A stretch of DNA of 64,000 bases from an uncultured Ignavibacteriales bacterium (lineage in GTDB: Bacteria > Bacteroidota > Ignavibacteria > Tepidaquicellales > OLB5). The position numbers and the translations under genes were made by a program. The DNA lies in NCBI GenBank assembly GCA_964461265.1, contig CAYWTS010000007.1, forward strand, positions 10,906 to 74,905, given 5' to 3'. Position 1 is the stretch's first letter; each line of letters opens with the position of its first letter. Shown here in pieces: positions 53,298 through 63,348 of this stretch. Below the pieces are notes generated by a model, which was not told the origin of the DNA, searched no databases, and saw nothing but the letters and a program-made list of their open reading frames with translations.

Positions 53298-53693
53298 ATG
53301 AAAACATTCAATTTCACACTTTTATTACTTTTTACTTTCATTATAGCACTTCTAGCGAATACACATATTTTTGCACAGAAAAACGTTATAATGGCGTCGA
53401 ATATTTCACCATTTACATGGGAAGTTCCTGCGGAATTTAAAGTGTATCAAAATTTCCCAAATCCATGCTATAAATCAACTACAATAAAATTCGATATTGC
53501 TTCACAGTCCGACGCAAAACTCACAATTTATGATTTCTATGATAATGAGGTCAAATGTTTTATTTACAATAATATAAAACCAGGAACATACCAAATTATT
53601 ATTGATGCTTCTGGTTTTTCTAATGGTGAGTATAGGTATGTATTTACTTCGGGTGAATATACACAAAGTTATCAAATGACAGTATTAAAATAG
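53298..53693 (+). CDS. Small secreted protein consisting almost only of a T9SS-type C-terminal sorting domain
   Basis: Signal peptide, then KVYQNFPNPCYKSTTIKFDI...LTIYD...G.Y...DASGFSNGEYRYVF, which is the type-A Por secretion CTD pattern. Confidence 0.6.
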   Translation: MKTFNFTLLLLFTFIIALLANTHIFAQKNVIMASNISPFTWEVPAEFKVYQNFPNPCYKSTTIKFDIASQSDAKLTIYDFYDNEVKCFIYNNIKPGTYQIIIDASGFSNGEYRYVFTSGEYTQSYQMTVLK

Positions 53694-53980: not shown

Positions 53981-54466
53981 ATGAATGAAATTGTTTCTAA
54001 ACTCAGGGAAAGATTAAGTGTAACAAACGGTTATAATTTCGTAACGCATTCAGAAATCCAAGAATACCCTTCGATAGAAATTCCCAAAGAAAGACTGCTT
54101 GAAATCTCAAAAATCCTTAAGGAGGAACTTGGTTTTATTCTGCTTATTGATATAGTTGGTGTTGACCGCTTCACAAAAGATTACAGGTTTGAATGTATTT
54201 ACAATCTATGGAATGAAACTGAAAAGCAAAGACTTTTTATCAGGGTAAAACTTGACTCTGCAAAACCAGAAGTGGAATCAGTAACCCCTCTCTGGCCGGG
54301 TGCAAACTGGATGGAAAGAGAAGCTTTTGATATGTTCGGAATAAATTTTCTTAACCATCCCGATTTGCGAAGAATTTACATGATACAAGATTATAAATAT
54401 TATCCTTTAAGAAAAGATTATCCTTTAATGGGAATTCCGGGAGCCTCGGAACTGCCAAAGAAATAA
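53981..54466 (+). CDS. nuoC: NADH-quinone oxidoreductase subunit C
   Basis: FECIYNLW...LFIRVKL...W.GANWMEREAFDMFGI.F..HPDLRRI motifs. Confidence 0.87.
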   Translation: MNEIVSKLRERLSVTNGYNFVTHSEIQEYPSIEIPKERLLEISKILKEELGFILLIDIVGVDRFTKDYRFECIYNLWNETEKQRLFIRVKLDSAKPEVESVTPLWPGANWMEREAFDMFGINFLNHPDLRRIYMIQDYKYYPLRKDYPLMGIPGASELPKK

Positions 54467-55749
54467 TGGACAAAAACATAATAGATACTATATTAGAAGT
54501 GAATAAAACTCATGGCAGGTTTAATGAGATACTCAAAGCACTTGAAACTGAGGACGTAAGAGCTTATTTCGATGAAGCATTAGACAACCAGTTAGTGCTT
54601 AATATGGGTCCGTCACATCCTGCTACACACGGAGTGCTCAGAGTTGTGATAAGCCTTGACGGTGAAATGGTTGTAAAAGCTGTCCCAGATATAGGCTACC
54701 TGCACAGGGGTTATGAAAAGCTTGCAGAAAACATGACATTTCATGAATTCATTCCCCACACCGACAGGCTCGATTATCTTTCTACGGTTGCTAATAACGT
54801 CGGATATATCCTGGCAGTGGAAAAACTCTTAGAAATAGAAACTACTCCTCGGACAAAATATATCAGAACAATCTGCTGCGAGCTTGCAAGAATTTCTTCC
54901 CATCTTGTTTGGATGGGAAGTATGGCAATGGATGTTGGAGCATTAACAGTTTTTTTATGGACATTCAGAGAAAGGGAAAAAATACTTGATATACTCGATT
55001 TAATTACAGGAGCCAGGTTTACTACAAGTTTCACGCGTATCGGAAGCGTATGGAAAGATATCGATGACGAAGTAATTAAACGTACCAGGATTTTTCTGGA
55101 AGAATTTCCCGCTAACTTAAAAGAAAGCCAGGACCTCATAGAACGAAACCGGATCTTTATTAACCGCTGTGAAGGTGTCGGGTATATATCAAGAGAAGAC
55201 GCACTTGCCATTGGACTTACAGGTCCGAACCTTCGGGCTTGCGGAGTTGCAAGAGATTTACGAAAAGATGAACCCTATCTTATATACCCAGAACTCGATT
55301 TCGATGTTCCAACACTTCCTGAAGGTGACAGCCTTGCAAGGTATTACGTTCGTATCCGTGAATTCTACGAGTCGGTAAAAATATTAAATCAATGCCTAGA
55401 TAAGCTCCCCGATGGTCCTATTGATGCTCACGATACCCGTAATGTATTACCTAAGAAAGAAAAGATATATACTAAAATGGAAGAGTTAATAGACGATTTT
55501 ATGCTTGTTAACTTTGGTAATATCCCTGAAAAAGGCGCTGAATCTTATTTTGGATTCGAATCTTCCAAGGGCGAACTTGGTTTTTACTTTATAAGCAACG
55601 GTACAGGTTATCCCTACAGATTAAAAATACGTTCCCCTTCATTTGTTAATTTGCAGTCACTGCCCATTTTAACCAAAGGATGCCTGATATCGGATGTTGT
55701 TGCTATTATCGGCAGCATAGATCCGGTTATGGGTGAGGCAGATAAATAA
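54466..55749 (+). CDS. nuoD: NADH-quinone oxidoreductase subunit D
   Basis: LNMGPSHPATHGVLR, GYLHRGYEKL, RICCELARISSHL and the C-terminal DPVMGEADK. The start overlaps the nuoC stop (TAATG). Confidence 0.92.
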   Translation: MDKNIIDTILEVNKTHGRFNEILKALETEDVRAYFDEALDNQLVLNMGPSHPATHGVLRVVISLDGEMVVKAVPDIGYLHRGYEKLAENMTFHEFIPHTDRLDYLSTVANNVGYILAVEKLLEIETTPRTKYIRTICCELARISSHLVWMGSMAMDVGALTVFLWTFREREKILDILDLITGARFTTSFTRIGSVWKDIDDEVIKRTRIFLEEFPANLKESQDLIERNRIFINRCEGVGYISREDALAIGLTGPNLRACGVARDLRKDEPYLIYPELDFDVPTLPEGDSLARYYVRIREFYESVKILNQCLDKLPDGPIDAHDTRNVLPKKEKIYTKMEELIDDFMLVNFGNIPEKGAESYFGFESSKGELGFYFISNGTGYPYRLKIRSPSFVNLQSLPILTKGCLISDVVAIIGSIDPVMGEADK

Positions 55750-55765
55750 ATCTATGTTCACTTAA

Positions 55766-56248
55766 TTGATGGAAATAAAGTTTACAGAAGAAAATCTAAG
55801 GAAAATTGACGAAATTAAGTCACATTATCCTACTGCTGATTCAGCATTACTGCCTGTATTATGGCTTGCACAGGAACAGTTCGGATGGATTTCTCTTGAA
55901 GTGATGCAATACATAGGTGACCTGCTTAATATTCCCTATGAGCGTGTTTATGGTGTAGTGAGCTTTTATACGATGTTCAACAAAAAACCTGTCGGTAAAT
56001 ATCACCTGCAGGTCTGCACCAATGTTTCATGCATGCTGCGTGGCGCTTATGAAATACTGGAGCATATTTGTAAAAAGTTAAACATCTTAGTAGGTGAAAC
56101 AACACCTGATAAAAAATTTACAGTTACCGAAGCCGAATGTCTCGGCAGCTGCGGAACGGCACCGATGCTCCAGCTCAATAATTACTTTAAAGAAAACCTG
56201 ACCAAAGATAACATCGACAAATTACTTGAAGAACTTCATAAAAGCTAA
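55766..56248 (+). CDS. nuoE: NADH-quinone oxidoreductase subunit E (2Fe-2S)
   Basis: ALLPVLWLAQEQFGWI, Cys ligands in QVCTNVSCMLRG and CLGSCGTAPM. An ATG at 55769 is the likelier start. Confidence 0.87.
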   Translation: MMEIKFTEENLRKIDEIKSHYPTADSALLPVLWLAQEQFGWISLEVMQYIGDLLNIPYERVYGVVSFYTMFNKKPVGKYHLQVCTNVSCMLRGAYEILEHICKKLNILVGETTPDKKFTVTEAECLGSCGTAPMLQLNNYFKENLTKDNIDKLLEELHKS

Positions 56249-56259
56249 AAAATATTTCG

Positions 56260-57567
56260 TTGCATAAAATTATTTTAAAAGATATTCCTTCACTGCATAA
56301 GCTCGAAGTTTACCGTTCAAACGGAGGCTATGAAGCCCTAAAAAAGGCATTGAAAGAAATGAAACCTGAAGAAGTTACAGAAGAAGTAAAAAAATCAGGT
56401 TTACGCGGAAGGGGCGGTGCATGTTTCCCGACAGGACTGAAATGGTCATTCATGCCTAAGAATTCGGACAAACCAAAATACCTTTGCTGCAACGGAGATG
56501 AATCGGAGCCGGCAAGCTTTAAAGACCGGCAGATATTCGAATTTAATCCGCATGTATTTATTGAAGGTACCCTGCTCTCATGTTATGCAATGGGTATCAA
56601 AACAGCATACGTTTATATCAGAGGAGAATATTTCTACTGGCAGGAACTTCTTCAAAAAGCAATCGATGATGCTTACACAAATAACTTGATAGGCCAAAAT
56701 ATATTAAGAACAAATTTTTCTGCCGACATCTTTATACACCGCGGCGCCGGTGCTTACATCTGCGGAGAGGAAACTGCACTGATGAATTCGATAGAAGGAA
56801 AACGCGGTTACCCGCGTGTCAGGCCCCCCTTTCCTGCACACTACGGCTTATGGGGATGTCCTACCACAATAAACAATATAGAAACTATTTCAAATATACC
56901 GGCAATAATTGAAAATGGGGGTGAGTGGTACAGCAAGATAGGTGAACCGAAACACCCCGGAAATCTTTTGTATGGTGTTAGCGGGCATGTCAACAAACCG
57001 GGAGTTTATGAATTACCTTCCGGAACATTGCTCACCGATATCATATACAAATACGCAGGCGGTGTAACCGGTAACAAAAAAATCAAGATGGTAATCCCCG
57101 GTGGTTCGTCGATGCCGCCTATTCGGGGTGATGAAATCGAAGGATTAAAGATGGATAACGAAAGCCTTAAAACAGTAGGTTCAGCAATAGGAACAGCCGG
57201 AATAGTGGTTATGAATGAAGACACCGATATAGTAAAAGTCCTAAAGAGAATAACGCAATTTTATTACCATGAATCGTGTGGTCAATGCACACCCTGTCGT
57301 GAGGGTTGTGGCTGGATGTTGAAAATCTTAAACAGGATAGACAGCGGAAATGGCAGGTTAGAAGACATCGATTTACTTTCGGAGGTAGCCTGTAACATTG
57401 AAGGTAATACCATATGTGCTTTCGGTGAAGCGGCAGCCTGGCCCGTTAAATACACAATTCAAAAGTTTAGAAATGAATTTAGCGAAAAAATCACTAAAAA
57501 AGACATAAAGCTGCCTGAATTGAATAAAGTACACGCTTTAAAAACAACAACCGCAATAAGTAACTAA
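56260..57567 (+). CDS. nuoF: NADH-quinone oxidoreductase subunit F (FMN, 4Fe-4S)
   Basis: GLRGRGGACFPTGLKW, CNGDESEPASFKDR, GAGAYICGEETAL and ESCGQCTPCREG. Confidence 0.92.
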   Translation: MHKIILKDIPSLHKLEVYRSNGGYEALKKALKEMKPEEVTEEVKKSGLRGRGGACFPTGLKWSFMPKNSDKPKYLCCNGDESEPASFKDRQIFEFNPHVFIEGTLLSCYAMGIKTAYVYIRGEYFYWQELLQKAIDDAYTNNLIGQNILRTNFSADIFIHRGAGAYICGEETALMNSIEGKRGYPRVRPPFPAHYGLWGCPTTINNIETISNIPAIIENGGEWYSKIGEPKHPGNLLYGVSGHVNKPGVYELPSGTLLTDIIYKYAGGVTGNKKIKMVIPGGSSMPPIRGDEIEGLKMDNESLKTVGSAIGTAGIVVMNEDTDIVKVLKRITQFYYHESCGQCTPCREGCGWMLKILNRIDSGNGRLEDIDLLSEVACNIEGNTICAFGEAAAWPVKYTIQKFRNEFSEKITKKDIKLPELNKVHALKTTTAISN

Positions 57568-57763
57568 TTAAGGCAATTAGCCCCTTAGACATATCAAATT
57601 GCTTGTAACCCGCTAACGTCTTTTCGGTATTGTGTTTTTTAAAATAAACCTAAATATTGCAATAGCTTCTGTTAGCAATTAAAAATTAAAACTAAAGTTT
57701 AATAAACCTTCGGGGATTATATTTTCGAAAACGTTAAAATAATTAAAACGGAGAACTTTTAAA

Positions 57764-58990
57764 ATGGATCAAACCGCCTTAAACGTCACACAGGAAAAAC
57801 ATACAAGTGCTTCCTCTCAGTTATTTGGCAGCAACTTCAAAAAGGATAATCTCGAAAAGAGAATTCAGGAGTTAATGCGAGAATCGACTGAATACCATGA
57901 ATTAAAACAATATGTTATCGATAAAGGGGTTAAAAAAATACAGGATGAAGGGCTGCTTGGCCGTTTGAAACCTGCAATACCTTCTATTATCGGTTTAATC
58001 TTATCTTACTTTATTGATGTATCAAAAGTTCCTTTTTTAGGAAAAGTCGCTGAAAATCTTGCAAACTGGGTATTCCCGGGCGGTGTATCCTTAAATAAGG
58101 CAGTAGAACCGGTTTCATTATGGTGGCTTCCTGTAATAACTTACGCAGTCTTTATCCTGTGTTCGGAACTTTCGTATAGGAAACTATTAAAAGAAGTTAG
58201 TACTAAAGGAGTATCACAAGAAATCATTGAAAGAATCACAAACAGATATGCAACCATTGTGGACGGCATAGGTACCGCCTTACCTTTACTCGGTGCTGCT
58301 ATCCTGCTTATCAGTATAAAAGAAGGCCCAATTATATTTCTTGGATTCTCAGTTCCATTCGAAATTAAAGCTATAACTATTCTTGCAATCGCAAAACTCT
58401 TCGAAATAGTTTTTGATTCACAGGGTCTTAAGTTTGCAGAACTCCGCGAAGAACTGAATGACCTGGAAAAAGAATATTTCACCGAACGTGACGATATACA
58501 CCAGAGAGCAATTTTACAGCAGCTCCATGACGGATTTTCAAAAAGAGGCGCGGATTCAATGCCGCTTACCGAAAAGTTCTCGAAGGAAGAAGCACAGGAA
58601 ATTTACAATTCACTTCATAAAGCAGCTGAATTCAGTGAAGCCATTTCGAAAAATGTTGTGATAATGAGGAATGCGATAGTTGAAATGAGCAAAACAAATA
58701 TACACGATTCCGAGCTTCTCAAAGAATTACAAAATACATCACAATCACTTTCAACTGCACTCGCAGCTGCTTCACAAACAGCAGAGTATAGTGAGATTAT
58801 GAAAAGAAATCTTGAGGCAATGAGAAACTTAATTAATGAACTCGATAACATTAAATTCCCTGAAGACAAGATTCTAAAAGAATTACAGGTTACTGCTCAC
58901 ATGCTTACAGAAACTGCAAATTCGCTTAAGGATGCACAGGCAATAAAAGGACTAGATAACCTGGCTTATTTAGCCGGAAAAAGACAATAA
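57764..58990 (+). CDS. Uncharacterised polytopic inner-membrane protein with stator-like TM hairpin and duplicated coiled-coil tail
   Basis: GGAG lies 10 nt upstream of the ATG. Four predicted TM helices (about residues 70-87, 117-138, 163-186, 189-216). GTALPLLGAAIL and PFEIKAITILAIA motifs. C-terminal helical tail with a 52-aa duplication. Confidence 0.6.
   Translation: MDQTALNVTQEKHTSASSQLFGSNFKKDNLEKRIQELMRESTEYHELKQYVIDKGVKKIQDEGLLGRLKPAIPSIIGLILSYFIDVSKVPFLGKVAENLANWVFPGGVSLNKAVEPVSLWWLPVITYAVFILCSELSYRKLLKEVSTKGVSQEIIERITNRYATIVDGIGTALPLLGAAILLISIKEGPIIFLGFSVPFEIKAITILAIAKLFEIVFDSQGLKFAELREELNDLEKEYFTERDDIHQRAILQQLHDGFSKRGADSMPLTEKFSKEEAQEIYNSLHKAAEFSEAISKNVVIMRNAIVEMSKTNIHDSELLKELQNTSQSLSTALAAASQTAEYSEIMKRNLEAMRNLINELDNIKFPEDKILKELQVTAHMLTETANSLKDAQAIKGLDNLAYLAGKRQ
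58625..58936 (+). repeat. Tandem 156-nt (52-aa) intragenic duplication
   Basis: AEFSEAISKNVVIMRNAIVEMSKTNIHDSELLKELQNTSQSLS... aligns with AEYSEIMKRNLEAMRNLINELDNIKFPEDKILKELQVTAHMLT.... I counted 17 of 52 identical residues by hand. Confidence 0.7.
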
Positions 58991-59021
58991 TTTTAAAAAC
59001 TTATTTTAAAAGTTCAGTAAA

Positions 59022-59921
59022 ATGAAAAAACAGCGTGATGTAAAATTCATTATATATCAGTCACTCTACATTTTTGTAGTTTGTGTTGTAGCCATAAAAG
59101 GTGCTAACCTTGACCTTGTTCAGGTTATTGCAGATGACGGGACGCCGAAGGTTTTTCTTTCTCCTGATTCCTTACAAAAATTATATGAAACTATAAAGAA
59201 ATCAGTAATTGTTGATACAAGTATTTTTGTCATAGTTCCGAAAAAATTACTGGAGGAAAATGAGAAGCTAAGATTAATTGTTCAAAATATGCCTAAGATA
59301 GACCTGAGTTTATATACATTAAAATCCGAAATTAAACCTATCGAGGAAGAGAAGCTTAAGGAGGAGGAAAAAATAAATCCTACAGAGCCGACAGAAATAC
59401 GAATCGGGCAAATAAACCTTACACAATATACGGAAAATCCCTTATCAAATCCTTATGATGTCCCGCTCGAAATTGTAGGGATAACAACTATCCCGCCAAA
59501 GAGCACTAAAACTTTTGTAACAGGCGGGCAAAGCTCGGTAGTAATAAAAGTAGGTAACAGTTCCAAAACAGTAGAACTCAAACCTAATAGACAGCCTAAA
59601 ATAAACATGCAAAGGCTCGTCACAATGGGTGAAGAAGCCAGCGTATCGAACATGCAAAGAACGATTTGTTACAGAGTAACCATAGATGACGATTTCCCGG
59701 GACAGCTCGATGTTAAATTTGCAGGACCCATTACATTTAAACAAGCAGGTCCAACCACATTCGATGTTACCTTAAATGCATTCCCCAGTAAGACATCATT
59801 CGATAATTACACAGAAAACAAGGAAGCACCCTATTCGCTGGGTTTTACTGTAACGGTATCTGACAGGATTGCACCTCATAAAATAACTGGTCAAAACAGC
59901 TTTATTTTTGGAGATTGGTAA
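59022..59921 (+). CDS. Uncharacterised bitopic membrane protein (N-in single TM, beta-rich periplasmic domain)
   Basis: MKKQRDVKFIIYQSLYIFVVCVVAI TM anchor, an E/K-rich linker (EEEKLKEEEK), and a beta-strand-like C-terminal 170 aa. Confidence 0.6.
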   Translation: MKKQRDVKFIIYQSLYIFVVCVVAIKGANLDLVQVIADDGTPKVFLSPDSLQKLYETIKKSVIVDTSIFVIVPKKLLEENEKLRLIVQNMPKIDLSLYTLKSEIKPIEEEKLKEEEKINPTEPTEIRIGQINLTQYTENPLSNPYDVPLEIVGITTIPPKSTKTFVTGGQSSVVIKVGNSSKTVELKPNRQPKINMQRLVTMGEEASVSNMQRTICYRVTIDDDFPGQLDVKFAGPITFKQAGPTTFDVTLNAFPSKTSFDNYTENKEAPYSLGFTVTVSDRIAPHKITGQNSFIFGDW

Positions 59922-60002
59922 AATCACTATAATAATTATTGAAATAATAATGTAAAGGTAGTTTATTTGGTTCAGATGATTTTTAAAACAAATATTAAAA
60001 AA

Positions 60003-61268
60003 ATGAAAAATACTAAAAAAGCCATTTCTTTACTTCTGCTTTTGTTCACATTTGCATTAATATTCAATGCAAATAAGGTACTCGCTCAGCAAGAGGACCC
60101 GGAGAATCCGAGAACTTGGACTTATTTCAGGATTACTGCCAGTGCTGAAGATGACAGCATCTTTATAAAAATCCAGGACGATGTACTTATCGATCCAAAG
60201 ATGGATCGTTATACGATTGTCGTTAATATTAGTGATCCAAATACTCAAAACCAATATGTGGTATTCGGTGATGAGCTGGATCCCGGAGCCCAAAGGTTTG
60301 CCTGGTCACAGCTATCTAAACAGGTACAGGATGGATTAAAGAACTGGACAGGAACGAATAAAGAAAATTTAAACCAGAAAAAGCTTAATTATGCCAGCGT
60401 ATTCTTAGATGTAATTAAACAAATAAAGATCAAGGAATTCGTTGCACCTCCGAAGAGGGAAAGAATAATCCGTAATACAACGGCATACATTAACCCGTAC
60501 CTTACTTTATTCGGATGGGAACAGCTGGGAATTCCTATAAAAAGATCAATTGGTTTTACTTTTGGAACAGGCAGTAAATATTCCGGACCGTTTGAAAGCG
60601 ACGAAATAGGAATCGGATTCAATATGCTTGGTGTGTCGGTCCAATACGTAACCAGGATTCGTGAATTAAACACACACGACCTCGGTTCCGATAGCACCGA
60701 AAACAAACCGTGGAAACAATATAATGCCATATTTATGCCTCCCAGAGGCTTAAAACTGACTTACACAATTCCTCTGGGTAACTTCCTTGAAGTAGGTGTG
60801 TACAGTGAAATCAAAGAAACAGGTGTGCAACCGGGCGGCGGTCCGCCACTTTACACTTTCAGGAATCAAAAAGATTCTACTATTATGCCCAACAATATAG
60901 TTACAGGTACAAAGCTTATCGGTGAATTCAGGTATCCTTTTAGAATGTTCGGTTCAACAAGAACCCAGTTCTATGTAGGTTACTATATGGATGAGATAAA
61001 TATTGGCTTATTCACAAGAGAAAGCCGCCTAGTAGGTTCGGTGTTCGACTTCAGAGTGAATGCAACATTAAAAAAGATACGTAATTTCCAGCTACTTATA
61101 GAAATCATGGTTTCGAATATTGCGGAAGGTTTTGCCCTCAACTCTTTTGCAGTAGGACCTTCAATCAGGATTTCAAAACTTGATACAGGCAAATTCGGGC
61201 TTTTGTCTGCATTTCTTAATATCAGGTTTAAACTCGGCGATTACTTCGACGAGAGAGAGAAAAAATAA
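60003..61268 (+). CDS. Uncharacterised secreted protein, predicted outer-membrane beta-barrel
   Basis: Signal peptide MKNTKKAISLLLLLFTFALIFNANKVLAQ (the ORF is open from TTG 59967). The C-terminal half has alternating hydrophobic strands (GIGFNMLGVSVQYV, LKLTYTIPL, FYVGYYMDEINIGLF, VFDFRVNATL, LLSAFLNIRFKL). Confidence 0.5.
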   Translation: MKNTKKAISLLLLLFTFALIFNANKVLAQQEDPENPRTWTYFRITASAEDDSIFIKIQDDVLIDPKMDRYTIVVNISDPNTQNQYVVFGDELDPGAQRFAWSQLSKQVQDGLKNWTGTNKENLNQKKLNYASVFLDVIKQIKIKEFVAPPKRERIIRNTTAYINPYLTLFGWEQLGIPIKRSIGFTFGTGSKYSGPFESDEIGIGFNMLGVSVQYVTRIRELNTHDLGSDSTENKPWKQYNAIFMPPRGLKLTYTIPLGNFLEVGVYSEIKETGVQPGGGPPLYTFRNQKDSTIMPNNIVTGTKLIGEFRYPFRMFGSTRTQFYVGYYMDEINIGLFTRESRLVGSVFDFRVNATLKKIRNFQLLIEIMVSNIAEGFALNSFAVGPSIRISKLDTGKFGLLSAFLNIRFKLGDYFDEREKK

Positions 61269-61307
61269 TTTTAATTTTCTTAATAAATGGATAGTTAATA
61301 AATTAAT

Positions 61308-61342
61308 AAATCCTGCAATTAGTGATAATTGCAGGATTTTTT
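61308..61342 (+). terminator. Strong Rho-independent terminator closing the three-gene operon
   Basis: AAATCCTGCAATT (61308-61320), loop agtgat, AATTGCAGGATTT (61327-61339). The T run extends to 61342. Confidence 0.85.
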
Positions 61343-61390: not shown

Positions 61391-62077
61391 TTGCCAACAG
61401 AAAAAGAATTAGAAGACCTTGTATATATTATATCTCATGATTTAAAGGAACCTTTAAGAATGATTAATTCATATATACAGCTTATCGCGAAAAAATATAT
61501 TACTACGCTAGATGGTGATGCAAAGGATTATTTTAACTACGTAATTGATGGAACAAAACGTTTGCAGATGATGATCGACGACCTTGCTTCATATTCGAAA
61601 ATTCTTAGAAATGACTACAAATATGAAGTTGTCGATTTGAATACCATTGCAAATAAGGTTAAAGAAACTGTTATTAAACTTCATAAAGACGTTAACTTAG
61701 TAATTAATATAGAAAAATTACCAAGTTGCTATTGCTACCCTGATTTATTTGAAATATTATTAATGCATTTAATAAATAATGCTCTAAAATTTAATTCAAA
61801 TACACCCTGTGTAAATATCCGTTGTGTTAAAAAACGTTCAAAACTCACTTTTGAAATCGAAGATAACGGAATTGGAATCGATGGTCAATTTTATAAAGAA
61901 ATATTCAGGGTATTTAGAAAATTACATACAAATAAAGAATATCCCGGTTCAGGAATAGGTCTGGCAATTTGTAAAAAAATCGTTGAAAAACATGGTGGAA
62001 AAATATGGTTTACAAGTTCTAAAACAAAAGGTACAATTTTCTTTTTTACATTAATGAATAATAAACATATTAATTAA
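61391..62077 (+). CDS. Sensor-less histidine kinase (HisKA + HATPase_c only)
   Basis: H-box ISHDLKEPLRMI about 10 residues from the N-terminus. N-box LINNALKF. G-boxes EDNGIGI and GSGIGLAICKKIVEKHGG. No TM or sensor domain. TTG start. Confidence 0.75.
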   Translation: MPTEKELEDLVYIISHDLKEPLRMINSYIQLIAKKYITTLDGDAKDYFNYVIDGTKRLQMMIDDLASYSKILRNDYKYEVVDLNTIANKVKETVIKLHKDVNLVINIEKLPSCYCYPDLFEILLMHLINNALKFNSNTPCVNIRCVKKRSKLTFEIEDNGIGIDGQFYKEIFRVFRKLHTNKEYPGSGIGLAICKKIVEKHGGKIWFTSSKTKGTIFFFTLMNNKHIN

Positions 62078-62235
62078 CTATTTATTAGTAATTTTTAACT
62101 ATTTACGTTAATTGACATTATTACATAAATTAGTATACTAAACTAGGGATTTGTATTAAACCGTTAATTTATTTATCTTTATATATCTTGATTTTAACTA
62201 ATTCATTAATTTAAGTTTAATATTAGTAGTAATTT

Positions 62236-63348
62236 TTGACAGAACCGGCAATCAAATACGCTGACAAACTCAAACTTATCAACATTTTACTTATTGAAGA
62301 TAATCCGGGCGATGCCAGGTTAATTAATGAGTATTTAACCGACTCGAAACACATTAATTTTAACCTGACCGTAGCTGAACGCTTATCTAAAGGAATAGAA
62401 TACATCGAAAATGAATTGATTGATGTAATACTGCTCGATTTAAAACTCCCGGATTGTGAAGGACTAACCACATTCGTTAAAACATCTGAAATTGCACCGA
62501 GTATACCGATAATAGTTTTAACGGGATTAGATGATGAAACAACTGCTGTATCGGCAGTAAAAATGGGAGCACAGGACTATCTTGTGAAAGATAAAGTTGA
62601 AGAAGAAATACTGGAAAGGTCAATAAGATATGCGATTGAAAGAAAACGTGCAGAAGAAGAACATCAAAAGCTGCTTGAACAAAGAATCAGGTCATTAGCT
62701 ATTATAGAAGCTCAGGAAAATGAAAGACGACGCATTTCAAGAGAACTGCACGATGGACTGGGGCAGCTGTTATCTGCGGCTAAGCTAAAGTTTGGTATGC
62801 TGGAACTTTTAAATAACCAGGATAGGGAAAGAGCATTAGAAATTATAAAAGATGTTGATGGAATAATAAGCAAATCAATTATAGAGGCAAGAAGAATAGC
62901 ACACGACCTGCGTCCTACAACTCTTGACGATTTTGGGCTTATACCTGCTCTTAGAATTCTATGTCAGGAGTTTGCTAAGCTTACAGGCATAAAGGCAAAA
63001 TTCCAGGTCTCACAACTTTTAGAAAGAATAGAACCTAAAGTCGAAATAGCTATATACAGGATTATCCAGGAATCATTTAATAATATCAGTAAATATGCTG
63101 AAGCCACCGAAGTTACACTAGACGTATACCGGAAAAATAACCTTGTCTATGTAAATGTAAAAGATAATGGTATAGGATTCGATATGGAAAGCATTAACAA
63201 GCAGAAAAAAGCCGGTAGAGGTTTCGGTCTATTAAACATGAAAGAGCGTGCAGAACTTGTTGGCGGCAGGATAGAAATTAACTCGGAACCGGGCAAAGGT
63301 ACCGAATTACTTTTGGAAATCAATTTAGATTTCTTCCATAATCCGTAA
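62236..63348 (+). CDS. Hybrid receiver-histidine kinase (REC + HisKA_3 + HATPase_c, NarX/DesK type)
   Basis: REC domain: ILLIEDNPGDARL...DVILLDLKLPD...IIVLTG...GAQDYLVK. HisKA_3 H-box RRISRELHDGLGQLLSA. HATPase: ESFNNISKYA, DNGIGF, GFGLLNMKERAELVGG. Confidence 0.82.
   Translation: MTEPAIKYADKLKLINILLIEDNPGDARLINEYLTDSKHINFNLTVAERLSKGIEYIENELIDVILLDLKLPDCEGLTTFVKTSEIAPSIPIIVLTGLDDETTAVSAVKMGAQDYLVKDKVEEEILERSIRYAIERKRAEEEHQKLLEQRIRSLAIIEAQENERRRISRELHDGLGQLLSAAKLKFGMLELLNNQDRERALEIIKDVDGIISKSIIEARRIAHDLRPTTLDDFGLIPALRILCQEFAKLTGIKAKFQVSQLLERIEPKVEIAIYRIIQESFNNISKYAEATEVTLDVYRKNNLVYVNVKDNGIGFDMESINKQKKAGRGFGLLNMKERAELVGGRIEINSEPGKGTELLLEINLDFFHNP

What the first reader, a model, noticed from the sequence alone, without database searches (positions are those of the whole stretch)
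57568..61342. Orphan three-gene operon with the architecture of an envelope-spanning, ion-driven energy-transducing system
Three co-oriented ORFs that I cannot assign to any named family form a tight unit.
- Boundaries: a 196-nt gap after nuoF, GGAG 10 nt before the first ATG, internal gaps of 31 and 45-81 nt, and the strongest terminator in the window at 61308-61342.
- Gene 1 (408 aa): a soluble N-terminus, four TM helices, and a helical tail of about 170 aa.
- Gene 2 (299 aa): a short basic N-terminus, a single TM, a charged linker and a beta-rich domain.
- Gene 3 (about 420 aa): a signal peptide plus a C-terminal half that reads like an outer-membrane beta-barrel.

The combination of a polytopic IM protein, a bitopic IM protein reaching into the periplasm and an OM component is the logic of the ExbBD-TonB, TolQRA, MotAB and GldLM/PorLM systems. 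None of their usual partners is present here (TonB, OmpA-like PG-binding domain, GldK, GldN). A T9SS-type CTD protein at 53298 suggests the organism has a canonical T9SS elsewhere. This would therefore be a divergent or additional machine, not the standard one.
Basis: partly seen in the sequence, partly recalled or inferred. Interest (0 to 1): 0.82.

Follow-up and report, generated by a model that had tools for sequence, protein, structure and literature searches.

The report
Orphan three-gene envelope-spanning module of Ignavibacteria
Three adjacent genes with no known relatives encode an inner-membrane pair and an outer-membrane barrel that stay together across Ignavibacteria; they look like a new cell-envelope machine, perhaps proton-driven, but the energy coupling is not shown.

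Summary
Three co-oriented ORFs lie between nuoF and a hairpin terminator: g1 57764-58990, g2 59022-59921 and g3 60003-61268.

- **No known family.** None of the three matches Pfam, NCBIfam, PADLOC or PDB sequences.
- **Conserved unit.** Each belongs to a family seen almost only in Ignavibacteria-type genomes. In every one of about 62 species-level loci with enough DNA, the order g1-g2-g3 is kept, down to 35% identity. A paralogous five-gene variant also exists.
- **g1.** A four-helix inner-membrane protein. The last helix pair is nearly invariant and carries a buried Glu200. A repeat-built cytoplasmic tail follows.
- **g2.** A single-pass protein whose membrane helix is its best-conserved part, followed by a stalk and a beta-rich domain.
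- **g3.** The AlphaFold2 model and Foldseek indicate a signal peptide, a periplasmic domain and a generic outer-membrane beta-barrel.

The "ion-driven motor" reading is only partly supported. A calibrated profile test finds no sequence link to MotA/TolQ/ExbB. g2 lacks the membrane Asp of MotB/ExbD/TolR. Foldseek gives only non-significant hits, although 27 of the top 50 are motor A-subunits. The charge layout resembles GldLM more than MotAB.

Best reading: a new trans-envelope system, possibly a GldLM-like proton motor, with a role in envelope maintenance.

The parts
57613..57660 (+). Conserved upstream promoter/operator-like element: CTAACGT-N6-GGTATTGT-N-TTTTT...AAATATTG
   Evidence: The three blocks are invariant in an alignment of 10 close-clade loci, while the rest of the gap does not align. 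There is one copy in the 64-kb window on either strand. The full pattern occurs once in 24 of the 26 close-clade loci, and the shorter patterns once in all 26, always between nuoF and g1. Rfam finds no family.
57750..57753 (+). GGAG ribosome-binding site, 10 nt before the g1 ATG
   Evidence: Read directly from the sequence.
57764..58990 (+). g1: 408-aa inner-membrane protein with four membrane helices. Topology N-in/C-in is inferred from the positive-inside rule.
   Evidence: ORF and hydropathy. AlphaFold2 gives an all-helical model with pLDDT 84-93 over residues 120-240. At least 645 homologue clusters, none with a Pfam domain.
58256..58411 (+). g1 TM3-TM4 hairpin (aa 165-216), the family-defining core 'IVDGIGTALPLLGAAILL..KEGP..FLGFSVPFEIK..LAIAKLF'. 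Glu200 (codon 58361-58363) lies in the membrane.
   Evidence: It is the most conserved part of g1: mean consensus fraction 0.79/0.78 against 0.52 for TM1/TM2. The motif is kept in all full-size distant members. Glu200 is lost only in short degenerate paralogues such as P0387.
58412..58987 (+). g1 cytoplasmic helical tail (aa 217-408). It is built of 'D/E-x-x-L-L-K-E-L-Q-x-T' repeats and ends in the conserved peptide 'LDNLAYLAGKR'.
   Evidence: Long helices in the AlphaFold2 model. Repeat copy number varies between homologues, for example P0086-88 carry about 75 extra aa and P0068 about 30. The C-terminal motif is kept in distant short forms.
59022..59921 (+). [quoted passage not shown]
   Evidence: ORF and a single hydrophobic segment at 7-25. 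415 homologue clusters without Pfam domains. Alignment A2.
59037..59105 (+). g2 membrane helix and flanks (aa 6-28), 'DVKFIIYQSLYIFVVCVVAIKGA'. It contains no Asp or Glu. Lys8 and Tyr16 are conserved at a spacing of i+8.
   Evidence: It is the best conserved segment of g2: 0.89 mean consensus fraction, with 15 of 23 columns at >=95%. The same motif is present in the split and distant variants L085, L086, L089 and L091.
59394..59918 (+). g2 periplasmic C-terminal domain (aa 125-299), beta-rich by sequence
   Evidence: Conserved blocks DDFPGQLDVKF and PYS.GFTV. Probably homologous to the separate secreted protein X of the five-gene variant (hhalign probability 51%, E 1.6e-4, 147 columns). It was not modelled.
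60003..61268 (+). g3: 421-aa outer-membrane protein. Alternative upstream starts are the TTG at 59967 and the ATG at 59976.
   Evidence: ORF. 216 homologue clusters without Pfam domains. AlphaFold2 pLDDT 78.
60003..60086 (+). g3 signal peptide (aa 1-28), with a probable signal peptidase I site after VLA and no lipobox Cys
   Evidence: Hydrophobic segment at 10-28 and helix 2-27 in the model. The rest is read from the sequence.
60087..60380 (+). g3 N-terminal periplasmic alpha/beta domain (aa 29-126)
   Evidence: Model elements E41-47, H52-60, E69-75, E85-88, E97-100, H106-113 and E120-122, followed by a low-confidence linker at 127-161.
60486..61238 (+). g3 C-terminal beta-barrel part (aa 162-412), with 13 modelled long strands (probably 14)
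   Evidence: DSSP strands. Residues alternate hydrophobic and polar in the strands; the segment has 13.9% aromatic residues, 11.2% Gly and no Cys. The top 50 Foldseek hits are nearly all outer-membrane barrels such as FadL, OccK, OmpC/F, FapF, OprB and Wzi, with probability up to 0.84.
61308..61342 (+). Intrinsic terminator: a 14-bp stem, a 4-nt loop and a T run
   Evidence: dG about -15 kcal/mol.

Best explanation
The three genes encode one trans-envelope machine that is specific to Ignavibacteria and their close relatives.

**Shown**
- The three proteins always travel together.
- g1 is a four-helix inner-membrane protein. Its last two helices are nearly invariant and contain a conserved membrane-embedded glutamate.
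- g2 is a single-pass protein. Its membrane helix is conserved on all faces and is its best-kept part.
- g3 is a signal-peptide-bearing outer-membrane beta-barrel with a periplasmic N-terminal domain.

**Inferred**
- The g2 helix sits buried inside a ring of g1 TM3-TM4 hairpins, as the axle helix does in the 5:2 ion-driven motors.
- Protonation and deprotonation of g1 Glu200 drive movement of a g2 dimer relative to g1. Partners would be the conserved polar residues of g2 (Lys8, Tyr12, Gln13, Tyr16).
- The g2 stalk and beta domain carry this movement across the periplasm to the N-terminal domain of g3.
- In charge layout the system resembles GldLM, with the acid on the ring subunit and a base plus a tyrosine on the axle. 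It does not resemble MotAB, ExbBD or TolQR, where the acid sits on the axle.

**Likely role (weak inference from gene neighbourhood)**
- Maintenance or tethering of the outer membrane, comparable in purpose to Tol-Pal.
- Outside this clade the trio lies among housekeeping genes. Its neighbours there include a secreted coiled-coil LysM peptidoglycan-binding protein and a small coiled-coil lipoprotein.
For: **Conserved unit**
- g1-g2-g3 are adjacent, in the same order and strand, in every locus with enough DNA (about 62), at 35-81% g1 identity. The flanking genes change between clades.
- The trio recurs in a different lineage, L091.
- It also recurs as a paralogous five-gene variant that keeps the g1 core, the g2 helix motif and the g3 barrel.

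**Intramembrane complex**
- The g2 membrane helix is its most conserved segment (0.89; 15 of 23 columns at >=95%).
- g1 TM3-TM4 (0.78-0.79) is far more conserved than TM1/TM2 (0.52).
- The motif 'KF[IV][IL]YQ.LY' survives even when the rest of g2 is replaced.

**Buried protonatable residue**
- Glu200 is invariant in the 82 aligned Ignavibacteria homologues. It is kept in all full-size members of the wider family and lost only in short degenerate paralogues.

**Motor-like shape**
- The AlphaFold2 model shows a long TM3-TM4 helical hairpin running into a cytoplasmic helical domain.
- 27 of the top 50 Foldseek PDB hits are PomA, MotA, ExbB or TolQ chains.

**GldLM parallel**
[quoted passage not shown] GldM has an N-terminal membrane helix with Arg9 and Tyr17. 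GldLM has no detectable sequence similarity to other motors (paper 10.1101/2020.05.11.089193).
- g2 has Lys8 and Tyr16 at the same i+8 spacing.

**Outer-membrane partner**
-.

**Housekeeping character**
- g3 is 79-84% identical across the clade in which NuoF is 74-81% identical.

**Envelope neighbours**
- A LysM/coiled-coil protein is present in 47 of 80 loci, next to or near the trio.
- A small coiled-coil lipoprotein also recurs.
Against: - No sequence relation to any motor family.
  - Pfam is negative for 34 members.
  - Exhaustive HMMER finds only the family itself.
  - The calibrated hhalign test against TolQ is not significant, while the MotA control passes.
- All Foldseek hits for g1 have E >= 0.18, TM-scores <= 0.33 and rmsd above 20 A. 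Helical membrane proteins give many weak hits of this kind.
- No GldL/PorL or ZorA chain appears in the 50 hits that were listed.
- g2 has no membrane Asp or Glu.
- Glu200 sits near mid-membrane, while Lys8 is at the cytoplasmic edge. A GldL-Glu49/GldM-Arg9-type salt bridge is therefore not obviously possible.
- Stoichiometry, the g1-g2 contact and the g2-g3 contact were not modelled.
- No peptidoglycan-binding domain, TonB/TolA-like protein or GldK/GldN-like gene is adjacent.
- In the window's own clade the LysM and lipoprotein genes are not nearby.
- Strong conservation of membrane helices fits any obligate membrane heteromer, not only a motor.
Confidence: 0.4

Rival explanations
1. A passive structural bridge or scaffold. 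g1-g2 form a stable inner-membrane anchor and g2 contacts the g3 barrel. The complex fixes the distance between the membranes, or organises peptidoglycan and outer-membrane proteins, without converting ion flow into work.
For: - The strict three-gene synteny and the envelope-spanning set of parts do not need an energy source to be explained.
- No motor-family homology was found.
- g2 lacks a membrane Asp.
- The neighbouring LysM/coiled-coil protein and the Lpp-like lipoprotein are structural tethers by type.
Against: - A passive anchor would not need a nearly invariant helix conserved on all faces, an invariant buried Glu and a Pro in each of TM3 and TM4.
- It would also not need a long, conserved, repeat-built cytoplasmic tail with a conserved end peptide.
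- The preferential weak Foldseek hits to motor A-subunits would be unexplained.
Confidence: 0.25
2. A tripartite transport system. g1 oligomers form an inner-membrane channel or transporter, g2 acts as the periplasmic adaptor (membrane anchor, coiled coil and beta domain, as in membrane-fusion proteins), and g3 is the outer-membrane pore. The cargo is an unknown envelope component or solute.
For: - The logic of inner-membrane protein, anchored adaptor and outer-membrane barrel also describes efflux and export systems.
- In many lineages the g2 stalk is a predicted coiled coil (sequences).
- The closest weak fold matches of g3 are substrate channels such as FadL, OccK and porins.
- A Peripla_BP_6 binding protein lies directly upstream of g1 in several lineages.
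Against: - No HlyD/MFP, ABC, RND, MFS or TolC-type domain is found in any of the three proteins.
- No ATPase gene is conserved next to the trio. PhoH is only an occasional neighbour.
- g1 has only four helices with tiny periplasmic loops.
- The binding-protein gene is absent in most lineages, including the window.
Confidence: 0.15
3. A membrane sensor or signalling protein with two accessory proteins. This follows the JGI label 'methyl-accepting chemotaxis protein' given to g1. The g1 tail would signal to cytoplasmic partners in response to an envelope cue sensed through g2 and g3.
For: - The JGI label.
- The top Foldseek hits include chemoreceptor cytoplasmic domains (9a69, 2ch7; E 0.08-0.5) that match the long helical tail.
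- Histidine-kinase and response-regulator genes follow the trio in the window's clade.
Against: - Pfam MCPsignal is not matched by g1 at E <= 10. It is seen only at E 0.88 in 2 of 34 members.
- The two-component genes are neighbours only in the close clade.
- The conserved part of g1 is the membrane hairpin, not the tail.
Confidence: 0.07

Closest known systems
GldLM / PorLM, the proton-driven motor of type IX secretion and gliding in Bacteroidota
   Same: [quoted passage not shown]
- The axle subunit GldM has a short N-terminus and one membrane helix with a basic residue and a Tyr eight residues later, followed by a periplasm-spanning part.
- GldLM has no sequence similarity to MotAB or ExbBD.
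- g1 and g2 show the same layout: Glu200 in the last helix plus a tail, and Lys8/Tyr16 in the g2 helix.
- The host group is the same (Ignavibacteria are sister to, or inside, Bacteroidota).
   Different: - g1 has four membrane helices, not two.
- g2 is 299 aa against about 510 aa for GldM, and it has no GldM_N or GldM_C match.
- No gldK- or gldN-like genes are adjacent. The third gene is a beta-barrel instead.
- Glu200 lies near mid-membrane rather than at the cytoplasmic end.
- No GldL chain is among the 50 listed Foldseek hits.
MotAB / PomAB, ExbBD and TolQR: 5:2 motors of the MotA_ExbB family (PF01618)
   Same: - A polytopic A-subunit whose last two helices form the conserved inner hairpin, plus a cytoplasmic domain.
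- A bitopic B-subunit encoded immediately downstream.
- Action on an outer-membrane or wall-associated partner.
- These chains make up 27 of the top 50 Foldseek hits of the g1 model.
- hhalign placed g1 'DGIGTALPLLGA' on the ExbB TM2 motif 'ATIGAISPFVGL', although without significance.
   Different: - No Pfam match.
- The calibrated profile comparison is not significant, whereas MotA-TolQ is.
- The B-like subunit has no membrane Asp and no OmpA-like or ExbD-type periplasmic domain.
- No TonB, TolA, TolB or Pal partner is adjacent.
Tol-Pal, the outer-membrane stabilising system
   Same: - A housekeeping genomic context.
- An inner-membrane pair plus an outer-membrane component.
- Association in many genomes with a peptidoglycan-binding (LysM) coiled-coil protein and a small lipoprotein.
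- A published analysis reports that tol-pal loci are not identifiable in Bacteroidetes and expects that other outer-membrane stabilising systems remain to be found (PMC12204202).
   Different: - None of the Tol-Pal protein families is present.
- The outer-membrane part is an integral barrel, not a lipoprotein with an OmpA-like domain.
- The functional link is inferred from gene neighbourhood only.
Generic outer-membrane beta-barrels (FadL, OccK/OprD, general porins, FapF)
   Same: Signal peptide, amphipathic strands, aromatic- and Gly-rich composition, and fold-level matches.
   Different: - No sequence-family match.
- An extra conserved periplasmic domain of about 100 aa with a disordered linker.
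- A conserved 'GD[FY]F[DE]E' extension after the last strand.

Membership tests
MotA/TolQ/ExbB (Pfam PF01618) | Match to the family profile | tested here: not met
   - No PF01618 hit at E <= 10 for g1 or for any of 34 family members.
- An exhaustive HMMER search with the g1 core found 58 proteins, all of the g1 family.
MotA/TolQ/ExbB (Pfam PF01618) | Profile-profile similarity of the last two membrane helices | tested here: not met
   - g1 core against the TolQ core (80 sequences) scores 14.0; 12 of 150 column shuffles reach this.
- The control, MotA core against TolQ core, scores 23.5; 0 of 150 shuffles reach it.
- Full-length hhalign gives probability 0.5%.
MotA/TolQ/ExbB (Pfam PF01618) | Fold of the A-subunit (helical hairpin ring subunit) | tested here: inconclusive
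   27 of the top 50 Foldseek hits are PomA, MotA, ExbB or TolQ chains. All have E 0.18-2.2, probability <= 0.54 and TM-score <= 0.33.
MotA/TolQ/ExbB (Pfam PF01618) | 5:2 assembly around two B-subunit helices | not testable with these tools
   No multimer prediction is available. An attempt to model a fused g2+g3 chain failed at the alignment stage.
MotB/ExbD/TolR | Single N-terminal membrane helix, encoded directly after the A-subunit gene | tested here: met
   g2 has one hydrophobic segment at 7-25. Its gene starts 31 nt after g1.
MotB/ExbD/TolR | Conserved protonatable Asp inside the membrane helix | tested here: not met
   No Asp or Glu between residues 9 and 25 in g2 or in its variants. 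Asp6 lies before Lys8, at the cytoplasmic edge.
MotB/ExbD/TolR | OmpA-like or ExbD-type periplasmic domain | tested here: not met
   No Pfam or NCBIfam hit. hhalign of g2 against TolR gives probability 1%.
GldL/PorL | [quoted passage not shown] | tested here: inconclusive
   g1 has the hairpin, the tail and Glu200. It also has two extra N-terminal helices and no profile match. No GldL sequence was available for a direct comparison.
GldM/PorM | Match to the GldM_N / GldM_C profiles and a four-domain periplasmic rod | tested here: not met
   No Pfam or NCBIfam hit for g2. g2 has only 299 aa.
GldM/PorM | Membrane helix with a conserved basic residue and a Tyr eight residues later (Arg9/Tyr17) | tested here: met
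   g2 Lys8 and Tyr16 are invariant and are kept in distant variants. This is a resemblance, not proof of homology.
T9SS core operon gldKLMN / porKLMN | Adjacent gldK (FGE-sulfatase lipoprotein) and gldN genes | tested here: not met
   The neighbours in 80 loci are nuo genes, guaA, phoH, a Peripla_BP_6 protein, LysM, rsmB, dinG and two-component genes.
Methyl-accepting chemotaxis proteins (the JGI label for g1) | MCPsignal domain (PF00015) | tested here: not met
   Not found for g1 at E <= 10. Found at E 0.88 in 2 of 34 members.
Outer-membrane beta-barrel proteins (generic class) | Signal peptide plus an amphipathic antiparallel strand barrel | tested here: met
   AlphaFold2 pLDDT 78 with 13 long strands. 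Foldseek hits are nearly all outer-membrane barrels. The strands alternate in hydrophobicity. Barrel closure could not be inspected in 3D.
Named barrel families (FadL, OprD, porins, OmpA, PorV, PorP/SprF) | Match to a family profile | tested here: not met
   No Pfam or NCBIfam hit at E <= 10. The PDB profile search was empty.
Anti-phage defence systems (e.g. Zorya ZorAB) | Match to PADLOC models | tested here: not met
   No significant PADLOC hit. The housekeeping synteny argues against a defence island.

The most novel reading that the evidence does not exclude
g1-g2 are a further, sequence-unrelated class of ring-and-axle ion-driven motors, alongside MotAB/ExbBD/TolQR, GldLM and ZorAB. This class comes with its own dedicated outer-membrane barrel. 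It would serve Ignavibacteria either as their functional replacement for Tol-Pal or as the missing motor of their type IX-like secretion.
Probability: 0.3. Interest if true: 0.85.

Novelty: new variant of a known kind. Interest (0 to 1): 0.62.

Why it matters
- Ion-driven membrane motors are rare. Each new class (the flagellar stator, Ton/Tol, GldLM, Zorya) has opened a field. A compact three-gene system with a built-in outer-membrane partner would be an unusually simple model for how energy from the inner membrane is used at the outer membrane.
- If it is not a motor, it is still notable. The unit is as conserved as a respiratory-complex subunit, is present across a whole bacterial lineage, and has no annotated domain in any of its three proteins. 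It is therefore a clear gap in knowledge of the Gram-negative envelope in the Bacteroidota-Ignavibacteria group, where tol-pal loci are reported as not identifiable in Bacteroidetes (PMC12204202).
- It gives concrete residues to mutate (g1 Glu200; g2 Lys8, Tyr12, Gln13, Tyr16). The trio occurs in a MAG assigned to Ignavibacterium album (L063), a species that has been cultured.

Tried and rejected
- **Family searches.** Pfam, NCBIfam and PADLOC on all three proteins gave nothing. PDB sequence and profile searches for g1, g2 and g3 gave nothing meaningful.
- **Simple hhalign.** The g1 core against single E. coli TolQ, ExbB and MotA sequences gave probability <= 0.2%. The g1 family against a TolQ family built from 80 metagenome loci gave 0.5%.
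- **Sensitivity problem and fix.** With that set-up the known TolQ-MotA pair reached only 5%. I therefore replaced it with a column-shuffle calibration, in which g1 still fails and MotA passes.
- **Viral contigs.** A scan for TolQ/ExbB relatives to build the control profile found none.
- **Modelling g2 and g3 as one chain.** The plain-letter fusion gave a mis-aligned MSA, so it was not submitted. g2 therefore has no structural model.
- **Chemoreceptor idea** (the JGI label for g1): rejected, because there is no MCPsignal domain.
- **T9SS operon idea:** no gldK or gldN neighbours were found.
- **Canonical motors nearby.** tblastn with E. coli TolQ/R, ExbB/D and MotA/B, and a regex for the 'GLLGTV.G' signature, found none in the window or in about 1.3 Mb of related loci. 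This says nothing about the rest of the genomes.
- **Upstream clusters 17/18/19/22/52** were suspected to be ExbBD-like. Cluster 17 reads as a peptide-chain release factor, and those checked among the rest look like small membrane proteins. This was judged from the sequences by eye; no family search was run.
- **Riboswitch or sRNA in the 196-nt leader:** Rfam found nothing.
- **Literature.** No paper describing this family was found. A 2025 survey of MotAB homologues does not include it.

Full report
**1. What is in the sequence**

Between nuoF (56260-57567, NuoF equivalog) and a histidine-kinase gene (61391-62077) lie three + strand ORFs:
- g1, 57764-58990, 408 aa
- g2, 59022-59921, 299 aa
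- g3, 59967-61268 from a TTG

Homologues of g3 begin at the position of the ATG at 60003, 'MKNTKK', which gives 421 aa.

The leader is 196 nt, with GGAG 10 nt before the g1 ATG. The g1-g2 gap is 31 nt and the g2-g3 gap is 45 or 81 nt.

A hairpin with a 14-bp stem and a T run lies at 61308-61342. By RNAfold it scores about -15 kcal/mol. That makes it one of the best terminators in the window but not the single strongest.

Upstream are nuoC, nuoD, nuoE and nuoF.

**2. Orphan status**

None of the three proteins has a significant match in Pfam, NCBIfam or PADLOC. PDB chains give nothing either, by single sequence or by family profile.

Each protein nevertheless has a large family:
- at least 645 clusters for g1
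- 415 clusters for g2
- 216 clusters for g3

All clusters that carry a name come from Ignavibacteria-type MAGs, and none has a Pfam domain. JGI labels many g1 homologues 'methyl-accepting chemotaxis protein'. No MCPsignal domain is present, so the label is probably a coiled-coil artefact.

**3. Conserved unit**

A scan of one genome per species returned 80 loci. All are Ignavibacteria, Ignavibacteriota or Kapaibacterium-type, or are loosely labelled 'Bacteroidetes' or 'Chlorobi' MAGs. They include an Ignavibacterium album MAG and the complete genome of Ca. Tepidiaquacella proteinivora.

tblastn shows g1, g2 and g3 adjacent, in the same order and on the same strand, in every locus that extends far enough (about 62). 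This holds from 81% down to 35% g1 identity.

The flanks differ between clades:
- nuoF upstream and two-component genes downstream occur only in the window's clade (L001-L026).
- Elsewhere the trio sits among a BadF-type kinase, guaA, phoH, rsmB, dinG and spoU.

So the three genes move as one module. Within the close clade g3 is 79-84% identical, at least as conserved as NuoF at 74-81%. That is the behaviour of a core housekeeping function.

**4. The wider family and variants**

I searched 1.84 billion representative proteins exhaustively with HMMER, using a profile of the g1 membrane core. Only 58 proteins came back. All share the motif 'IDKYSGIVDGIGTALPLIGAA...VPFEIKS..LA.AKLFE.VFD'. Most also share a C-terminal 'L..L..I.GK' peptide. 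The very large MotA/ExbB family did not appear.

Look-ups of distant members showed three things:
- **A second, five-gene version.** It consists of a short g1 (about 240-265 aa), a 134-141-aa g2 that keeps the membrane motif 'RDVKFIIYQSLYI' followed by a coiled coil, two secreted proteins X and Y, and a g3-like barrel.
  - In some genomes it lies directly behind the three-gene version.
  - X is probably the detached C-terminal domain of g2 (hhalign probability 51%, E 1.6e-4, 147 columns).
- **The plain trio again in a higher-GC lineage (L091).** There the g2 helix reads 'HDVKFIIYQALYLVV' and the stalk is a coiled coil.
- **A decayed 216-aa g1 fragment** lies between nuoE and nuoF in one genome. 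In it Glu200 has become His.

**5. Anatomy of the proteins**

*g1.* Hydropathy gives four membrane segments. The basic loop at 138-165 and the basic N-terminus place both ends in the cytoplasm; this is read from the sequence using the positive-inside rule.

The AlphaFold2 model has mean pLDDT 68.6, with 84-93 over residues 120-240. It is all-helical. A long hairpin (helices 152-187 and 189-259) continues into a cytoplasmic helical domain.

Conservation is concentrated in this hairpin: 0.78-0.79 mean consensus fraction, against 0.52 for TM1/TM2 and 0.31-0.43 for most of the rest. Invariant residues include Pro174, Gly177, Pro198, Glu200 and Lys202.

The tail is built of 'LLKELQ.T' repeats whose number varies between lineages. 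It ends in a conserved peptide.

*g2.* The segment 6-28, 'DVKFIIYQSLYIFVVCVVAIKGA', is the best conserved part of the protein (0.89; 15 of 23 columns at >=95%). It is conserved on all helix faces, which fits a helix buried in protein rather than exposed to lipid. It contains no acidic residue.

The stalk (about 60-124) is the least conserved part (0.37). In many lineages it is coiled-coil-like. The C-terminal 175 aa are well conserved and look beta-rich.

*g3.* The AlphaFold2 model (pLDDT 78) has four parts:
- a signal helix
- an alpha/beta domain at 41-125
- a low-confidence linker at 127-161
- 13 long strands between 175 and 410

The strands alternate hydrophobic and polar residues. The segment has 13.9% aromatic residues, 11.2% Gly and no Cys. 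Nearly all of the top 50 Foldseek hits are outer-membrane barrels (FadL, OccK, OmpC/F, FapF, OprB, Wzi, LptD). Their E-values are 0.04-0.4 and their probabilities reach 0.84. g3 is therefore a generic outer-membrane barrel that belongs to no named family.

**6. Is it a motor?**

*Sequence tests are negative.*
- Pfam PF01618 is not hit by any of 34 family members, even at E <= 10.
- Plain hhalign against E. coli TolQ, ExbB and MotA, and against an 80-sequence TolQ family, gives probabilities <= 0.5%.
- That set-up proved insensitive, because TolQ against MotA reached only 5%. I therefore calibrated it by column shuffling. The g1 hairpin against the TolQ hairpin scores 14.0, and 12 of 150 shuffles reach that score. 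MotA against TolQ scores 23.5, and no shuffle reaches it.
- So g1 is not a detectable member of the MotA/TolQ/ExbB family. g2 also lacks the membrane Asp that defines MotB, ExbD and TolR.

*The structure test is only suggestive.* No Foldseek hit of the g1 model is significant. However, 27 of the top 50 are PomA, MotA, ExbB or TolQ chains from many entries. The remainder are coiled-coil proteins that match the tail.

*The closest parallel is GldLM.* According to the GldLM structure paper:
- GldL has two membrane helices and a long cytoplasmic tail, with invariant Glu49.
- GldM has an N-terminal helix with Arg9 and Tyr17.
- Neither protein has detectable similarity to other motors.

g1 ends in the same kind of hairpin-plus-tail and carries Glu200. 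g2 has Lys8 and Tyr16 at the same spacing.

The differences are:
- two extra helices in g1
- a much shorter g2
- Glu200 near mid-membrane
- no gldK or gldN genes nearby
- no GldL chain among the 50 listed fold hits

I therefore treat 'works like a ring-and-axle proton motor' as the leading but unproven mechanism (confidence about 0.4). 'Is a member of a known motor family' is not supported.

**7. What it may be for**

Outside the window's clade the trio is flanked, in 47 of 80 loci, by a secreted protein with a coiled coil and a LysM peptidoglycan-binding domain (Pfam LysM 21.1 bits). The following also recur nearby:
- a small coiled-coil lipoprotein
- PhoH
- in several lineages, a Peripla_BP_6 protein directly upstream of g1

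None of these genes is in the window, so they are not obligatory neighbours.

A published analysis reports that tol-pal loci are not identifiable in Bacteroidetes. It expects that other outer-membrane stabilising systems remain to be found (PMC12204202). A Tol-Pal-like role in envelope maintenance is thus a reasonable guess.

A role as the motor of a T9SS-like system is a second guess. The small ORF at 53298-53693 has only a sub-threshold T9SS sorting-domain match. Neither idea could be tested, because whole genomes cannot be searched with these tools.

**8. Regulation**

The 196-nt leader contains a conserved element at 57613-57660 (CTAACGT ... GGTATTGT.TTTTT ... AAATATTG).
- The blocks are invariant in ten close-clade loci, while the rest of the gap is not alignable.
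- The element occurs once in the whole window. The full pattern occurs once in 24 of the 26 close-clade loci, and the shorter patterns once in all 26, always in this gap.

It is therefore a locus-specific promoter or operator. It supports the view that the trio is its own transcription unit. Rfam finds no known RNA there.

**9. Verdict**

The 'orphan, conserved, envelope-spanning trio' is solid. The 'ion-driven energy transducer' is plausible and GldLM-like in layout, but it is not demonstrated and is not backed by homology.

The system is new in sequence terms. If the motor reading holds, it is a new variant of the ring-and-axle motor kind with its own outer-membrane partner.

Noticed in passing
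window 57613-57660: A conserved element in the nuoF-g1 leader (CTAACGT / GGTATTGT.TTTTT / AAATATTG). It is unique in the window. The full pattern occurs once in 24 of the 26 close-clade loci, and the shorter patterns once in all 26. It looks like a promoter for a specific sigma factor or an operator, not the general promoter consensus.
   Followed up: partly
L086 7001-11143; L089 6786-9909; L090 298-4432; also L073 and L079: A paralogous five-gene version of the system: a short g1, a 134-141-aa g2 that keeps only the membrane helix and a coiled coil, two secreted proteins X and Y, and a g3-like barrel. In some genomes it lies directly behind the three-gene version. X appears to be the detached C-terminal domain of g2.
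   Followed up: partly
L034 6749-7594 and 13910-14719; L086 11327-12495; L090 4839-6031: Outside the window's clade the trio is accompanied by a secreted coiled-coil + LysM protein (in 47 of 80 loci), a small coiled-coil lipoprotein of about 88 aa, PhoH and, in some lineages, a Peripla_BP_6 protein directly upstream of g1. None of these is in the window.
   Followed up: partly
L093 8001-8651: A degenerate 216-aa g1-like fragment lies between nuoE and nuoF, followed by nuoF and a full-length g1. Its core motif has decayed and Glu200 has become His. It looks like a relic of a partial duplication at the nuo/trio junction.
   Followed up: no
window 58700-58990 (g1 tail); homologues P0086-P0088 and P0068: The g1 cytoplasmic tail is made of repeated 'D/E-x-x-L-L-K-E-L-Q-x-T' helix modules. 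Copy number differs between lineages: about 75 extra aa in P0086-88, about 30 in P0068, and a single module in the short distant forms. The conserved C-terminal peptide is always kept.
   Followed up: partly
window 53298-53693: A 131-aa secreted protein consisting of little more than a signal peptide and a C-terminal region with a sub-threshold match to the T9SS type A sorting domain (TIGR04183, 17.4 bits against a cutoff of 23). A clean terminator follows at about 53751.
   Followed up: partly
window 53981-57567 and 61391-63348: The nuo genes stop after nuoC-D-E-F. No nuoG or later gene follows nuoF. The trio comes next, and then a stand-alone histidine-kinase core (228 aa) and a receiver-histidine-kinase hybrid (370 aa). 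The complex I operon is therefore split in this clade.
   Followed up: no
L091 11440-14130: In a higher-GC lineage the trio (381-297-398 aa) is followed by an 896-aa secreted protein with an N-terminal WD40 beta-propeller. A Cas6b gene and EamA transporter genes lie nearby, which is a different context from that in Ignavibacteria.
   Followed up: no
g1 homologues in public databases: JGI annotates many g1 homologues as 'methyl-accepting chemotaxis protein'. One g2 homologue is labelled 'RND superfamily exporter' and another 'peptidyl-tRNA hydrolase'. None of these labels is supported by a domain match, so they are probably annotation artefacts.
   Followed up: yes
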